From: Escherichia coli
GTDB lineage: Bacteria > Pseudomonadota > Gammaproteobacteria > Enterobacterales > Enterobacteriaceae
Assembly (NCBI RefSeq): GCF_001677475.2
Contig: NZ_CP015229.1
Length of the DNA: 64,000 bases
Reading direction: 5' to 3' (one strand)
In this document: piece after piece, positions 19,945-43,571 of the stretch
How positions within the stretch are numbered: position 1 is the stretch's first letter
How the letters are laid out: each line of letters opens with the position of its first letter
The notes under the pieces: model-generated
Database searches by the model: none
Seen by the model: the letters and a program-made list of their open reading frames with translations, nothing else
What the model was told of the DNA's origin: nothing
Translations under genes and position numbers: made by a program

Positions 19945-19988
19945 AAACGATCGATAAAACAGGTATCGATCGTTACTATCGATCGTTT
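19945..19988. promoter_or_regulatory. Ag43 phase-variation switch (three GATC sites, OxyR-binding region)
   Basis: GATC at 19949-19952, 19968-19971 and 19981-19984 within AACGATCGATAAAACAGGTATCGATCGTTACTATCGATCG, about 220 bp upstream of the Ag43 start codon. Confidence 0.7.
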
Positions 19989-20201
19989 ATAGTGGTTAAT
20001 GGCCTGCGAAAAGGCAGCTGAATCTCTTCATCATGCAGAACGGAATTGCACACAACGGACTGATACTTCTCTGGCGGATGAGAGAGGGGAAGCATTTATG
20101 TCCGGGAAAAACCACTTTATCTGACCATGCTGTTTTGTACCTGCCGGTATCCACATTTGTGGGTACCGGCTTTTTTATTCACCCTCTGTAAGGAAAAGCT
20201 G

Positions 20202-23048
20202 ATGAAACGACATCTGAACACCAGCTACAGGCTGGTATGGAATCACATTACAGGCACCCTGGTGGTGGCTTCCGAACTGGCACGCTCACGGGGAAAAGGC
20301 GCCGGTGTGGCGGTTGCTCTGTCTCTTGCTGCTGTCACGTCAGTCCCGGCACTGGCTGCTGACACGGTTGTACAGGCGGGAGAAACCGTGAACGGCGGAA
20401 CACTGACAAATCATGACAACCAGATTGTCCTCGGTACGGCCAACGGAATGACCATCAGTACCGGTCTGGAGTATGGGCCGGATAACGAGGCCAATACCGG
20501 CGGGCAATGGATACAAAATGGCGGTATCGCCAACAACACTACTGTCACCGGTGGTGGTCTTCAGAGAGTGAATGCCGGAGGAAGCGTTTCAGACACGGTT
20601 ATCAGTGCCGGAGGCGGACAGAGCCTTCAGGGGCAGGCAGTGAACACCACTCTGAACGGCGGTGAGCAGTGGGTACATGAAGGCGGGATTGCAACGGGTA
20701 CCGTCATTAATGAGAAGGGCTGGCAGGCCGTCAAATCCGGCGCAATGGCAACCGACACGGTTGTGAATACCGGCGCGGAAGGGGGACCGGATGCAGAAAA
20801 TGGTGATACCGGGCAGTTTGTTCGCGGAAATGCCGTACGTACCACCATCAATAAAAATGGTCGTCAGATTGTGGCTGCTGAAGGAACGGCAAATACCACT
20901 GTGGTTTATGCCGGCGGCGACCAGACTGTACATGGTCACGCACTGGATACCACGCTGAATGGGGGGTACCTGTATGTGCACAACGGCGGTACGGCGTCTG
21001 GCACTGTTGTAAACAGTGACGGCTGGCAGATTATCAAGGAAGGTGGTCTGGCGGATTTCACCACCGTTAACCAGAAAGGCAAACTGCAGGTGAACGCCGG
21101 TGGTACAGCCACGAATGTCACCCTGACGCAGGGAGGCGCACTGGTCACCAGTACGGCGGCAACCGTCACCGGCAGCAACCGTCTGGGCAATTTCACTGTG
21201 GAAAACGGTAATGCTGACGGTGTTGTTCTGGAGTCCGGTGGTCGCCTGGATGTACTGGAGGGCCATTCAGCGCAGAAAACATTGGTGGATGACGGCGCTA
21301 TCCTGGCAGTGTCTGCCGGTGGTAAGGCAACAGATGTCACCATGACATCCGGTGGTGCCCTGATTGCAGACAGTGGTGCCACTGTTGAGGGGACCAATGC
21401 CAGCGGTAAGTTCAGTATTGATGGCATATCCGGTCAGGCCAGCGGCCTGCTGCTGGAAAATGGCGGCAGCTTTACGGTTAATGCCGGGGGACAGGCTGGC
21501 AACACCACTGTCGGACATCGTGGAACACTGACGCTGGCTGCCGGGGGAAGTCTGAGTGGAAGAACACAGCTCAGTAAAGGCGCCAGTATGGTACTGAATG
21601 GTGATGTGGTCAGTACCGGCGATATTGTTAACGCAGGAGAGATTCACTTTGATAATCAGACGACACAGGATGCCGTACTGAGCCGTGCTGTTGCAAAAGG
21701 CGACTCCCCGGTAACGTTCCATAAACTGACCACCAGTAACCTCACCGGTCAGGGTGGCACCATCAATATGCGTGTTCGCCTTGATGGCAGCAATGCCTCT
21801 GACCAGCTGGTGATTAATGGTGGTCAGGCAACCGGCAAAACCTGGCTTGCGTTTACAAATGTCGGAAACAGTAACCTCGGGGTGGCAACCTCCGGACAGG
21901 GTATCCGGGTTGTGGATGCACAGAATGGTGCCACCACAGAAGAAGGTGCGTTTGCCCTGAGTCGCCCGCTTCAGGCCGGCGCCTTTAACTACACCCTGAA
22001 CCGTGACAGCGATGAAGACTGGTACCTGCGCAGTGAAAATGCTTATCGTGCTGAAGTCCCCCTGTATGCCTCCATGCTGACACAGGCAATGGACTATGAC
22101 CGGATTCTGGCAGGCTCCCGCAGCCATCAGACTGGTGTAAGCGGTGAAAATAACAGCGTCCGTCTCAGCATTCAGGGCGGTCATCTCTGTCACGATAACA
22201 ACGGCGGTATTGCCCGTGGAGCCACGCCGGAAAGCAGCGGCAGCTATGGCTTCGTCCGTCTGGAGGGTGACCTGCTCAGAACAGAGGTTGCCGGTATGTC
22301 TCTGACGACAGGGGTGTATGGTGCTGCAGGCCATTCTTCCGTTGATGTTAAGGATGATGACGGCTCCCGTGCCGGCACGGTCCGGGATGATGCCGACAGT
22401 CTGGGCGGATACCTGAATCTGGTACACACGTCCTCCGGCCTGTGGGCTGACATTGTGGCACAGGGAACCCGCCACAGCATGAAAGCGTCATCGGACAATA
22501 ACGACTTCCGCGCCCGGGGCTGGGGCTGGCTGGGCTCACTGGAAACTGGTCTGCCCTTCAGTATCACTGACAACCTGATGCTGGAGCCACAACTGCAGTA
22601 CACCTGGCAGGGGCTCTCCCTGGATGACGGCCAGGATAACGCCGGTTATGTGAAGTTCGGGCATGGCAGTGCACAACATGTGCGTGCCGGCTTCCGTCTG
22701 GGCAGCCACAACGATATGACCTTTGGCGAAGGCACCTCATCCCGTGACACTCTGCGCGACAGTGCAAAACACCGTGTGAGTGAACTGCCGGTGAACTGGT
22801 GGGTACAGCCTTCTGTTATCCGCACTTTCAGCTCCCGGGGTGACATGAGCATGGGTACAGCCGCAGCCGGCAGTAACATGACGTTCTCACCCTCACAGAA
22901 TGGCACATCACTGGACCTGCAGGCCGGACTGGAAGCCCGTGTCCGGGAAAATATCACCCTGGGCGTTCAGGCCGGTTATGCCCACAGTGTCAGCGGCAAC
23001 AGCGCTGAAGGCTATAACGGTCAGGCCACGCTGAATGTGACCTTCTGA
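20202..23048 (+). CDS. flu: Antigen 43 self-associating autotransporter
   Basis: MKRHLNTSYRLVWNHITGTLVVASELARSRGKGAGVAVALSLAAVTSVPALAADTVV N-terminus, repetitive beta-helical passenger, C-terminal beta-barrel ending ...GYNGQATLNVTF; 948 aa from the ATG at 20202. Confidence 0.9.
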   Translation: MKRHLNTSYRLVWNHITGTLVVASELARSRGKGAGVAVALSLAAVTSVPALAADTVVQAGETVNGGTLTNHDNQIVLGTANGMTISTGLEYGPDNEANTGGQWIQNGGIANNTTVTGGGLQRVNAGGSVSDTVISAGGGQSLQGQAVNTTLNGGEQWVHEGGIATGTVINEKGWQAVKSGAMATDTVVNTGAEGGPDAENGDTGQFVRGNAVRTTINKNGRQIVAAEGTANTTVVYAGGDQTVHGHALDTTLNGGYLYVHNGGTASGTVVNSDGWQIIKEGGLADFTTVNQKGKLQVNAGGTATNVTLTQGGALVTSTAATVTGSNRLGNFTVENGNADGVVLESGGRLDVLEGHSAQKTLVDDGAILAVSAGGKATDVTMTSGGALIADSGATVEGTNASGKFSIDGISGQASGLLLENGGSFTVNAGGQAGNTTVGHRGTLTLAAGGSLSGRTQLSKGASMVLNGDVVSTGDIVNAGEIHFDNQTTQDAVLSRAVAKGDSPVTFHKLTTSNLTGQGGTINMRVRLDGSNASDQLVINGGQATGKTWLAFTNVGNSNLGVATSGQGIRVVDAQNGATTEEGAFALSRPLQAGAFNYTLNRDSDEDWYLRSENAYRAEVPLYASMLTQAMDYDRILAGSRSHQTGVSGENNSVRLSIQGGHLCHDNNGGIARGATPESSGSYGFVRLEGDLLRTEVAGMSLTTGVYGAAGHSSVDVKDDDGSRAGTVRDDADSLGGYLNLVHTSSGLWADIVAQGTRHSMKASSDNNDFRARGWGWLGSLETGLPFSITDNLMLEPQLQYTWQGLSLDDGQDNAGYVKFGHGSAQHVRAGFRLGSHNDMTFGEGTSSRDTLRDSAKHRVSELPVNWWVQPSVIRTFSSRGDMSMGTAAAGSNMTFSPSQNGTSLDLQAGLEARVRENITLGVQAGYAHSVSGNSAEGYNGQATLNVTF

Positions 23049-42568: not shown

Positions 42569-43378
42569 TTAAAACAATGCCTGTAGATAAAGTGTTGCTA
42601 TACCGCCCAGACTTAAACACGGTCCAAAAGGCAGCGTCGTTGATCCTTTTTTTGTAATAACGGCATATATCAGGCCGCAGCATGAGGCGATTAAAGCAAC
42701 ATTGGGCAGTGACAACGGCCCCACCCAACTACCTAACGCAGCGAACAATAATACATCGCCCATGCCTAATGCTTCTTTACGCAGAACTATTCCGGCTATC
42801 CAGCGCAGAGAGTAAAAAGTGATAAACCCCACCAGGACGCCGGTGACTGCATCTTGTAGCGTGAGCGGGCTCTGCTGCGCCCATGCCGCAATTAGTCCCG
42901 TCCACAATACGCCCTGAGTAAAAACATCGGGCAGCCATTGGTTATCGAGGTCGATGACACTCGCGGCAATCAGCCAGGCGGATAATATCATCACCGCCAG
43001 CCCCCATCCACTTTCCGGCCAGACCAGACTCGCCAGCAAAAAAGCGAGTGCCGTCAATAACTCCACCAGCGGATAACGCTTGCTGATTTTCGTCTGACAG
43101 TCGCGGCAGCGCCCTTTGAGCATCAGCCAGGAGAATAGCGGAATATTGTCACGAACGCGGATGGTCTGCTGGCAATGCGGACAGTGCGAACGTGGCAGCG
43201 CCAGGCTTATTTTTGACTGCGCACTCGGCGTTTCCCCCTGAAACTCCGCCATTTGTTGGCGAAGCATGATGGGGTAACGCCAAATCACCACATTCAAAAA
43301 ACTGCCGATGATTAATCCTCCAACGGTTGCCAGGATGGGCATCACCGCTGGATATTGCTGAAAAACATCAAAATGCAT
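42569..43378 (-). CDS. pppA: Prepilin peptidase (GspO-type)
   Basis: 269 aa from ATG at 43378 ([21 protein letters not shown]...); zinc-finger CPHC...CRDC plus polytopic membrane domain. Confidence 0.8.
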
Positions 43379-43399
43379 GGTTAAAGGTTGTTTGTTGTA

Positions 43400-43571
43400 A
43401 TTTGCCGGATGCGGCGTAAAACGCCTTATCCGGCCTACAGGAGTCTGCCAACGCAAGTAATTGCGGCTTTCCCTGTAGACCCGATAAGTTGGCGCATCGG
43501 GCACATGTGTTAACCCGATGCGCCTTATTTCATGCCGGATGCGGCGTGAACGCCTTATCCGGCATACAGGC
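43400..43571. repeat. REP/BIME-type extragenic palindromic repeats
   Basis: Two near-identical GCCGGATGCGGCGT(A/G)AACGCCTTATCCGGCCTACAG-type units (43404-43440 and 43533-43570) plus an internal palindrome. Confidence 0.6.

What the first reader, a model, noticed from the sequence alone, without database searches (positions are those of the whole stretch)
43400..43571. REP/BIME palindromic cluster between pppA and sslE
Two near-identical REP-type palindromes and an internal palindrome fill the pppA-sslE spacer. They may act as an mRNA stabiliser or attenuator separating sslE from downstream pppA expression.
Basis: partly seen in the sequence, partly recalled or inferred. Interest (0 to 1): 0.15.

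Follow-up and report, generated by a model that had tools for sequence, protein, structure and literature searches.

The report
Ordinary REP/BIME cluster between sslE and pppA
The 193-base gap between the sslE and pppA genes is filled by a standard Escherichia repetitive palindrome cluster (three REP units forming a BIME) that also sits at this spot in E. coli K-12; it probably protects the upstream sslE message and dampens downstream expression, and it is an ordinary, already known kind of element.

Summary
The sslE-pppA spacer (43379-43571, both genes on the minus strand) holds two near-identical Y-type REPs in direct orientation (43403-43438 and 43533-43567).

Together these make one ~130-nt BIME unit plus a closing Y REP, best classed as an atypical BIME. 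The same element lies at the orthologous K-12 locus. The spacer varies widely in length among E. coli genomes, from 129 to 733 nt, covering truncated forms and 1, 2, 3 or 5 tandem units. Only the REP next to the sslE stop codon is always kept.

On the operon's mRNA the cluster folds into three stable hairpins (-24, -25.5 and -21.7 kcal/mol) with no U-tract, so it is not an intrinsic terminator. The most likely role is the classic one: a barrier to 3'-exonucleases that stabilises sslE mRNA, plus partial Rho-type attenuation ahead of pppA. Published K-12 RNA-seq counts show a 4.2-fold per-kb drop from yghJ to pppA, which fits this but does not prove it.

Interest is low.

The parts
43572..48149 (-). 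sslE (yghJ) coding sequence, upstream gene; stop codon TAA at 43574-43572
   Evidence: ORF list; C-terminus ...TEHKMSAE*; RefSeq annotation of matching E. coli loci as sslE
43533..43567 (-). REP#3, Y-type. It is the first hairpin on the mRNA. Its head reads GTAT instead of GTAG on the transcript strand. The hairpin base starts 5 nt, and the canonical stem 8 nt, after the sslE stop codon.
   Evidence: hairpin -24.0 kcal/mol, z -5.1; present in every E. coli allele examined
43504..43532 (.). Tail-to-tail linker (29 nt) containing a truncated REP copy, CCCGATGCGCCTTAT, at 43514-43528
   Evidence: D1, I9
43490..43525 (-). Composite 'internal palindrome': the REP#2 tail arm (43491-43501) pairs with the half-REP copy (43514-43524), giving a 12-bp hairpin on the mRNA
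   Evidence: I9, 100% complementary; -25.5 kcal/mol, z -6.9; the central pair is broken (C.A) in 8 of 13 units from other strains
43475..43503 (+). REP#2: inverted, short z2-like REP (GTAG at 43475-43478) with C-G at the position where Y has G-C and Z has T-A
   Evidence: minus-strand match CTTATCGGGTCTAC; I2, I4; its own hairpin is only -11.5 kcal/mol
43439..43474 (.). Head-to-head linker (36 nt), locus-specific, with no IHF site above chance
   Evidence: median of one place per genome; only a 2-mismatch IHF-consensus hit; 1.2 expected; no significant fold
43403..43438 (-). REP#1, Y-type with a canonical CTAC head (43435-43438). It is the last hairpin on the mRNA, 24 nt before the pppA ATG.
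   Evidence: -21.7 kcal/mol, z -4.6; its right arm is deleted in the 129-163-nt alleles
43379..43402 (-). Leader of pppA (AAUUACAACAAACAACCUUUAACC): C/A-rich and G-poor, with no obvious Shine-Dalgarno sequence; conserved in all alleles
   Evidence: C 9 / G 4 in the last 30-nt window
42569..43378 (-). pppA (prepilin peptidase), downstream gene; ATG at 43378
   Evidence: [12 protein letters not shown]...; RefSeq annotation of matching loci

Best explanation
The spacer is an atypical BIME. On the + strand it reads: Y REP (inverted form), 36-nt head-to-head linker, short z2-like REP, 29-nt tail-to-tail linker, Y REP. That is one ~130-nt BIME unit plus a closing Y REP. It is orthologous to the cluster in the yghJ-pppA spacer of E. 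coli K-12.

It lies inside the polycistronic sslE-pppA-gspS-gspC..M (type II secretion beta) operon and is transcribed with it. On the mRNA it forms three stable G+C-rich hairpins without U-tracts.

Proposed mechanism (inferred, not shown). The hairpins block 3'-to-5' exonucleases (PNPase, RNase II). Transcripts that end or are cut downstream are therefore trimmed back to a stable sslE-only species. The 193-nt untranslated, structured gap also lets Rho stop a fraction of polymerases before pppA. The result would be more mRNA for the secreted substrate SslE than for its secretion machinery.

The element itself arose and varies through REP/BIME dynamics: tandem unit gain, and deletions between repeats.
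For: Identity (shown):
- REP consensus halves, orientation, GTAG/CTAC feet and stem mismatches are all present.
- The REP parts match a median of 31 places per E. coli genome, a lower bound because of the piece limit.
- The middle part occurs at a single locus per genome.
- Alignment to the K-12 and ETEC1732 spacers gives 96% mean column identity.
- Tandem 130-137-nt units number 1, 2, 3 or 5 in different strains. PMC3333891 describes exactly this for BIME-2 and atypical BIMEs.

Mechanism (inferred):
- Hairpins of -24.0, -25.5 and -21.7 kcal/mol form on the transcribed strand, with z -4.6 to -6.9.
- No terminator-like or promoter-like site lies on that strand in the spacer.
- The operon is reported to be polycistronic.
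- A C-rich, G-poor stretch follows the last hairpin, as seen downstream of protective stem-loops of Rho-dependent transcripts (PMC6061677).
- REP325 in yjdMN acts as a partial Rho-dependent terminator and an upstream stabiliser. REP-separated tandem gene pairs are biased towards upstream expression.
- K-12 DESeq2 baseMean values are yghJ 1472 and pppA 62.4. With the gene lengths this is 323 versus 77 per kb, a 4.2-fold drop. Both genes moved in the same direction in that comparison.
Against: - There is no direct transcript data for this window or this strain.
- The K-12 read-density drop continues a further 6.4-fold from pppA to yghG, where there is no REP. The decline is therefore not specific to the BIME. 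BaseMean values also pool all samples of that study.
- In 41 of 59 sampled E. coli genomes the spacer is truncated (129-163 nt) and only the stop-proximal REP is intact. The full three-hairpin architecture is therefore not under strong constraint.
- No compensatory substitutions occur among 13 units, so there is no covariation support for RNA-level selection. The sequences are too similar for this test to have power.
- The preprint itself reports that REP effects depend on context and that REPs do not uniformly lengthen mRNA half-life.
Confidence: 0.6

Rival explanations
1. The cluster is essentially neutral or selfish repeat DNA. It is a BIME maintained and reshaped by REP-associated transposase (TnpA-REP/RAYT) activity and by slippage or recombination between repeats. 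Any effect on sslE or pppA expression is incidental and not selected.
For: - Length polymorphism at this one locus is extreme: 129, 139, 146-148, 155, 163, 193-197, 326, 459 and 733 nt.
- Deletions have end points in repeated CCCGAT/GCGG motifs.
- Tandem unit gain matches the in-vitro TnpA-REP amplification model (PMC3333891).
- There is no covariation.
Against: - The stop-proximal REP is retained in all alleles seen.
- REP hairpins have physical effects on RNA whether or not they are selected.
- REP#3 here carries GTAT instead of GTAG. According to PMC3333891 this abolishes TnpA-REP binding, so that copy is probably no longer mobile.
Confidence: 0.3
2. The main effect is translational. REP#3 starts fewer than 16 nt after the sslE stop codon, so its hairpin obstructs the terminating ribosome. 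This would cause stalling, tmRNA-mediated rescue and lower SslE yield (the mechanism of Liang, Rudd and Deutscher 2015).
For: - The hairpin base lies 5 nt, and the canonical stem 8 nt, downstream of the UAA.
- The REP sits next to the stop codon in every allele.
Against: - This was not tested for sslE, and the original paper was not available here.
- About half of the REPs in that study met the distance criterion, so meeting it is unremarkable.
- SslE is an abundantly secreted product (PMC3707838), which does not suggest strong throttling.
Confidence: 0.2
3. The cluster is a true transcription terminator that ends an sslE monocistronic unit, and pppA-gsp is expressed from its own promoter in or near the spacer.
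For: Stable hairpins lie directly after the stop codon, and RNA density drops across the spacer in K-12.
Against: - No hairpin is followed by a U-run, and no terminator-like or promoter-like site was found on the minus strand in 43000-44000.
- The operon is reported as one polycistronic mRNA.
- yghJ and pppA changed together in the K-12 data set, with log2FC 1.28 and 1.10.
Confidence: 0.05
4. The element works at the DNA level, as a binding or cleavage site for DNA gyrase (as in BIME-2) or for IHF (as in BIME-1/RIB), relieving supercoiling behind the long, highly transcribed sslE gene.
For: The Y plus z2-like composition and tandem amplification resemble BIME-2, the family reported to be cut by gyrase (references listed; own knowledge of Espeli and Boccard 1997).
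Against: - The head-to-head linker is 36 nt, not the short S motif of BIME-2.
- The IHF consensus is matched only with 2 mismatches, which is chance level at 1.2 expected.
- Protein binding cannot be tested with these tools.
Confidence: 0.08

Closest known systems
E. coli REP/BIME elements (Y, Z1, Z2 palindromic units; BIME-1, BIME-2 and atypical BIMEs of Gilson/Bachellier, as summarised in PMC3333891), specifically the orthologous cluster in the K-12 yghJ-pppA spacer
   Same: It has the same Y consensus, the same GTAG/CTAC foot and the same stem mismatch. [quoted passage not shown] The location is extragenic and inside an operon. The tandem unit number varies between strains. It occupies the same position as in K-12, with 96% mean column identity over the aligned spacers.
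   Different: The partner REP is neither canonical Z1 nor Z2: it is short like Z2 but has C-G at the covarying stem position. The head-to-head linker is long (36 nt) without an IHF site, so it fits neither BIME-1 nor BIME-2 strictly and is 'atypical'. REP#3 has GTAT instead of GTAG.
REP325 in the yjdM-yjdN operon (source of naRNA4, Rfam RF02564)
   Same: Both are tandem REP clusters between two co-oriented genes of one operon. REP325 is shown to be a partial Rho-dependent attenuator and an upstream-mRNA stabiliser. The window's REPs give weak sub-threshold matches to RF02564.
   Different: REP325 has six repeats whereas this cluster has one unit plus one REP. The Rfam scores (39.7 and 36.1) are below the gathering score of 59.5. 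No experiment has been done on the sslE-pppA cluster.
Intercistronic REPs of malE-malF and hisJ-hisQ (Higgins 1982; Newbury 1987; cited; details from own knowledge)
   Same: In both cases REP hairpins sit after a highly expressed first gene (an exported or periplasmic product) and before lower-expressed membrane machinery genes. They protect the upstream mRNA segment from 3' exonucleases.
   Different: The operon and proteins differ, and the effect here is untested.
Stop-codon-proximal REPs, e.g. nrdAB (Liang, Rudd and Deutscher 2015, as quoted in PMC12306157)
   Same: The REP hairpin lies within 15 nt of the upstream stop codon.
   Different: No evidence of ribosome stalling or tmRNA tagging exists for SslE.

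Membership tests
REP (E. coli palindromic unit) | 30-40-nt imperfect palindrome matching the Y/Z consensus | tested here: met
   REP#1 is 36 nt and REP#3 is 35 nt, and both match the Y consensus. REP#2 is 29 nt and z2-like. The consensus strings themselves come from my own knowledge and PMC3333891 Fig. 1.
REP (E. coli palindromic unit) | Conserved GTAG/CTAC tetranucleotide at the foot of the stem | tested here: met
   REP#1 has CTAC at 43435-43438 and REP#2 has GTAG at 43475-43478. REP#3 has ATAC at 43564-43567, one substitution. The feature is met for two of three copies.
REP (E. coli palindromic unit) | Mismatch or internal loop within the stem | tested here: met
   A 2x2 internal loop appears in the folds of REP#1 and REP#3.
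REP (E. coli palindromic unit) | Many dispersed extragenic copies per genome | tested here: met
   The spacer query matched a median of 31 places per E. coli genome, in 5425 of 5426 genomes. Within this 64-kb window it is the only cluster.
BIME (any type) | [quoted passage not shown] | tested here: met
   The orientations are -, +, - (by the 5'-GTAG convention), with linkers of 36 nt and 29 nt.
BIME-1 | Y plus Z1 pair, a conserved long L linker with an IHF site, single copy | tested here: not met
   The partner REP is short with no inner GC stem, so it is not Z1. The IHF consensus is matched only with 2 mismatches, which is chance level. The unit is tandemly amplified in other strains.
BIME-2 | Y plus Z2 with a short S head-to-head linker, in variable tandem copies | tested here: inconclusive
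   The Y plus z2-like pair and the variable tandem copy number are met. The head-to-head linker is 36 nt, not short. The best fit is therefore the 'atypical BIME' class defined in PMC3333891.
Intrinsic (Rho-independent) terminator | G+C-rich hairpin followed by a U-run | tested here: not met
   No terminator-like site was found on the minus strand in 43000-44000. The sequences after the three hairpins are AUGAAAUAAG, AACUUAUC and AAAUUACAAC.
naRNA4 (Rfam RF02564) | Score at or above the family gathering threshold (59.5 bits) | tested here: not met
   The best scores are 39.7 and 36.1 bits, and there was no match at gathering threshold over the whole window. The resemblance only reflects shared REP sequence.
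REP mRNA stabiliser / Rho-dependent attenuator (functional class) | Stable 3' ends at the hairpin feet; longer upstream half-life and lower downstream transcription that depend on the element | not testable with these tools
   Only indirect evidence is available: the 4.2-fold per-kb drop from yghJ to pppA in K-12 baseMean values.

The most novel reading that the evidence does not exclude
The number of ~130-nt BIME units in this spacer (truncated, 1, 2, 3 or 5 units across Escherichia strains) acts as a heritable, strain-specific dial. It would set the ratio between the secreted mucinase SslE and its type II secretion machinery, so that BIME expansion and contraction tunes a colonisation and vaccine-candidate factor without changing promoters or proteins.
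Probability: 0.1. Interest if true: 0.45.

Novelty: already known. Interest (0 to 1): 0.1.

Why it matters
It matters little beyond correct annotation. The region should be labelled as a REP/BIME repeat and not as an ORF. The mechanical ORF list produces 41-aa and 58-aa ORFs inside it, and a 358-aa 'extended pppA' that runs through it.

For people working on SslE, a vaccine candidate and mucinase, and on T2SS-beta, two practical points follow. Strains differ widely in this intercistronic spacer, from 129 to 733 nt. Knock-out or fusion designs that end at the sslE stop codon cut into a REP hairpin; the published E. coli W sslE deletion primer lies in this repeat. If REP clusters really act as combined stabilisers and attenuators, these differences could change the substrate-to-machinery expression ratio between strains.

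Tried and rejected
- **Rfam.** Only sub-threshold naRNA4 matches were found, so the cluster is not filed as that family.
- **Promoter and terminator scan.** Nothing was found on the transcribed strand in the spacer, so the intrinsic-terminator and internal-promoter readings were rejected.
- **IHF consensus scan.** Only a chance-level hit appeared, so BIME-1/RIB was rejected.
- **Covariation on 13 aligned units.** There was no change on both sides of any pair, and the shuffles were uninformative because the sequences are nearly identical. This gives no evidence either way.
- **K-12 RefSeq record.** I looked for a REP annotation, but no repeat feature is listed there.
- **Unavailable papers.** Yang et al. 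2007 (PMC1797218) and Liang et al. 2015 (PMC4427526) are not held. Their content is cited only through other papers or marked as my own knowledge.
- **Supplements.** Those of PMC3333891, PMC12306157 and PMC6061677 had nothing on yghJ or pppA.
- **GTDB species-representative scan.** Scanning with the conserved pppA leader gave one hit, Escherichia sp. E1V33, which has a 2-unit version. This did not identify the window's source. The window is 93.5% identical to E1V33 over 13.5 kb. Its glcB is 97.8% identical to the best of 5426 E. coli genomes.
- **The long ORF 42569..43645 through the spacer.** It is a frame accident. The K-12 spacer is 4 nt longer, so the frame is not conserved.
- **A REP-like hit at 1421-1434.** It is not a REP.

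Full report
**Context**

The window comes from an Escherichia chromosome. Its malate synthase gene glcB (50654-52825) is 97.8% identical to the best of 5,426 complete E. coli genomes. A 13.5-kb stretch is 93.5% identical to Escherichia sp. E1V33. The source lineage is therefore not closely represented in the collections searched.

The genes around the finding all lie on the minus strand:
- sslE/yghJ, 43572-48149, with stop TAA at 43574-43572 and C-terminus ...HKMSAE*
- pppA, 42569-43378, starting MHFDVFQQ...
- gspS-beta/yghG, gspC and gspD, following in turn

This is a complete type II secretion beta operon. sslE is the upstream gene, pppA is the downstream gene, and the spacer is 43379-43571 (193 nt).

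**Observation check**

The sequence and the repeat finder confirm two near-identical REP-type palindromes.
- REP#1, 43403-43438: TGCCGGATGCGGCGTAAAACGCCTTATCCGGCCTAC
- REP#3, 43533-43567: TGCCGGATGCGGCGTGAACGCCTTATCCGGCATAC

They are in direct orientation, 130 nt apart. They differ only in the loop and at one base of the CTAC head.

A perfect 11-bp palindrome lies between them (43491-43501 / 43514-43524). The REP head-half motif occurs three times in the 64-kb window, all in this spacer, against 0.21 expected by shuffling. Searches for the Z-type head and for the tail motif find no other REP in the window. The transcript-strand RNA of the spacer folds at -97.6 kcal/mol, with z = -7.2.

One of the three head-half matches is on the opposite strand (43475-43488). 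It belongs to a third REP, 43475-43503 (GTAGACCCGATAAGTTGGCGCATCGGGCA), which is inverted relative to the other two.
- It is 29 nt long and lacks the inner GGCG...CGCC stem, like the short Z2 type.
- At the stem position where Y has G-C and Z has T-A, it has C-G.

The "internal palindrome" is therefore not a separate element. It is the tail arm of REP#2 pairing with a truncated REP copy (CCCGATGCGCCTTAT, 43514-43528) inside the tail-to-tail linker.

The full anatomy on the + strand is:
1. Y REP#1 (43403-43438)
2. 36-nt head-to-head linker (43439-43474)
3. z2-like REP#2 (43475-43503)
4. 29-nt tail-to-tail linker (43504-43532)
5. Y REP#3 (43533-43567)
6. 4 nt, then the sslE stop codon

This is the definition of a BIME: REPs in alternating orientation separated by linkers (PMC3333891).

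**BIME type**

BIME-1 requires a Z1 partner, a conserved L linker with an IHF site, and a single copy. Here the partner is not Z1. The IHF consensus is matched only with two mismatches, against 1.2 such hits expected per 193 nt. The unit is also tandemly amplified in other strains.

BIME-2 requires Y plus Z2, a short S linker and variable tandem copies. The composition and copy variability fit, but the 36-nt head-to-head linker does not.

The best label is "atypical BIME" in the sense of PMC3333891.

The REP portions are dispersed, matching a median of 31 places per E. coli genome. The middle portion (43440-43532) is specific to this locus, with a median of one place per genome and up to five where the unit is amplified.

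**Comparison with other genomes**

The same element occupies the same spacer in E. coli K-12 MG1655 (197 nt) and in ETEC1732 (193 nt), with 96% mean column identity.

I sampled 59 genomes at even steps through the ranking of about 3,600 locus-bearing genomes, and inferred spacer lengths from the joined flank matches:

| Spacer length (nt) | Genomes |
|---|---|
| 129 | 16 |
| 139 | 11 |
| 146-148 | 5 |
| 155 | 2 |
| 163 | 7 |
| 193-194 | 2 |
| 197 | 14 |
| 459 | 2 |

Individually fetched alleles add 733 nt (Z0117EC0005) and 326 nt (Escherichia sp. E1V33).

Reading the sequences sorts the alleles as follows:
- The 193-197-nt alleles are one unit plus a closing Y REP.
- The 326-, 459- and 733-nt alleles are 2, 3 and 5 tandem units of 130-137 nt.
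- The 129-163-nt alleles (41 of 59 sampled) are deletion derivatives. REP#1 has lost its loop and right arm, and REP#2 or the composite palindrome is often partly deleted as well.

This agrees, where 973 genomes covered at least 80% of the full-spacer query. Only REP#3, next to the sslE stop codon, is intact in every allele seen. Variable tandem BIME number at one locus across strains is a described property of these elements (PMC3333891).

**How it most likely works**

Shown:
- On the transcribed (minus) strand, REP#3 folds at -24.0 kcal/mol (z -5.1), the composite palindrome at -25.5 (z -6.9) and REP#1 at -21.7 (z -4.6).
- REP#2 alone reaches only -11.5 kcal/mol and is out-competed by the composite palindrome. 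The head-to-head linker has no significant structure.
- None of the hairpins is followed by a U-run. The scan finds no terminator-like or promoter-like site on that strand between 43000 and 44000.

From the literature:
[quoted passage not shown] 2007).
- REP hairpins define and protect the 3' ends of Rho-dependent transcripts against PNPase and RNase II, with C-over-G enrichment just downstream (PMC6061677).
- A REP cluster inside the yjdMN operon is both a partial Rho-dependent attenuator, with about a 10-fold effect on the downstream gene, and a stabiliser of the upstream mRNA.
- REP-separated tandem gene pairs are biased towards upstream expression (bioRxiv 10.64898/2026.03.23.713779).

Inference: this BIME stabilises an sslE-ending mRNA species. 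Together with the 193-nt untranslated gap and the C/A-rich, G-poor 24-nt leader before pppA, it allows partial Rho-dependent attenuation. The secreted substrate would then be expressed above its machinery.

One indirect datum fits this. It comes from the DESeq2 tables of the same preprint, for K-12, which carries the orthologous one-unit BIME.

| Gene | baseMean | Per kb |
|---|---|---|
| yghJ | 1472 | 323 |
| pppA | 62.4 | 77 |
| yghG | 4.98 | 12 |

The per-kb values use the gene lengths. There is a 4.2-fold drop across the BIME, and yghJ and pppA changed together in that comparison (log2FC 1.28 and 1.10). However, a further 6.4-fold drop occurs between pppA and yghG, where there is no REP. 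BaseMean also pools all samples. The datum is therefore consistent with the mechanism but not diagnostic.

I put the identity at about 0.97 and the stabiliser/attenuator mechanism at about 0.55-0.6.

**Rivals**

1. Neutral or selfish repeat. The heavy polymorphism, the deletions between repeated motifs, and the absence of compensatory change in 13 aligned units all fit weak constraint. That test had no power, since 94.5% of cells pair and no pair changes on both sides. This does not exclude a physical effect of the hairpins. REP#3 carries GTAT instead of GTAG, a change that abolishes TnpA-REP binding in vitro, so that copy is probably immobile.
2. Translational throttling. The REP#3 hairpin begins 5-8 nt after the UAA, inside the under-16-nt zone in which REPs were reported to lower translation of the upstream gene (Liang et al. 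2015, as quoted in PMC12306157). This is plausible and not exclusive of the main explanation, but it is untested. By that paper's count about half of all REPs meet the criterion.
3. True terminator plus a pppA promoter. This is rejected.
4. Gyrase or IHF site on DNA. There is no IHF site, and gyrase binding cannot be tested here.

**Comparison with known elements and novelty**

This is a member of the E. coli REP/BIME family and is orthologous to the K-12 yghJ-pppA cluster. Functionally, the closest studied cases are REP325 in yjdMN and the classic malE-malF and hisJ-hisQ intercistronic REPs. Rfam has no REP family as such. The only matches are sub-threshold hits to naRNA4, which derives from REP325. 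Nothing here is new in kind.

The most novel reading not excluded is that the unit number acts as a strain-specific dial on the SslE-to-machinery ratio. I give it about 0.1 probability.

**Verdict**

This is an already known kind of element, and interest is low (0.1).

Noticed in passing
window 42569-43645 (minus strand): The mechanical ORF list extends pppA upstream through the whole REP spacer to a TTG at 43645 (358 aa), because the spacer has no in-frame stop. The K-12 spacer is 4 nt longer, so this frame is not conserved. It is an annotation trap rather than a longer protein. Small + strand ORFs (43388-43513 and 43489-43665) are also made of REP sequence.
   Followed up: partly
window 1-64000; K-12 locus L001 3367-3442: ARAGORN finds no tRNA gene anywhere in the window. 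In K-12 the tRNA-Phe gene pheV lies right next to the end of this secretion operon (yghD). The region beyond gspM therefore differs from K-12.
   Followed up: no
window 19947-20183 (+) and 20127-23048 (+): There is an Rfam match to IS102 RNA (RF00124, 74.8 bits) overlapping the start of a 973-aa ORF. From memory, this sRNA candidate lies upstream of the antigen-43 gene flu in K-12, so this may be an Ag43-like autotransporter on an island. This was not checked.
   Followed up: no
window 50377-50598 (+): There is a full-length match to C0719 RNA (RF00117, 282.7 bits) in the gap between the 560-aa ORF (48616-50298) and glcB (50654-52825).
   Followed up: no
window 43179-43771 versus E. coli genomes: The pppA 5' end and the sslE 3' end are only 90-94% identical to all E. 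coli genomes that carry the locus, whereas glcB 7 kb away is 97.8% identical. The sslE-pppA region is therefore more divergent than neighbouring housekeeping DNA, in line with the known sslE variants.
   Followed up: partly
loci L005 (TKEC21-59) and L008 (DETEC-S792): In some E. coli alleles the annotated sslE stop lies inside or directly against the head of the last REP: the spacer ends ...CCTTATCCGGG or ...CCTTATCCAGG. In those strains the coding sequence runs into the repeat.
   Followed up: no
ETEC1732 (NZ_CP122823.1) and two other genomes, rows H91-H93: The otherwise single-locus middle part of the spacer has two places in these records although their spacer is the one-unit form. This suggests a second copy elsewhere on the chromosome, possibly a duplicated sslE/T2SS region.
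   Followed up: no
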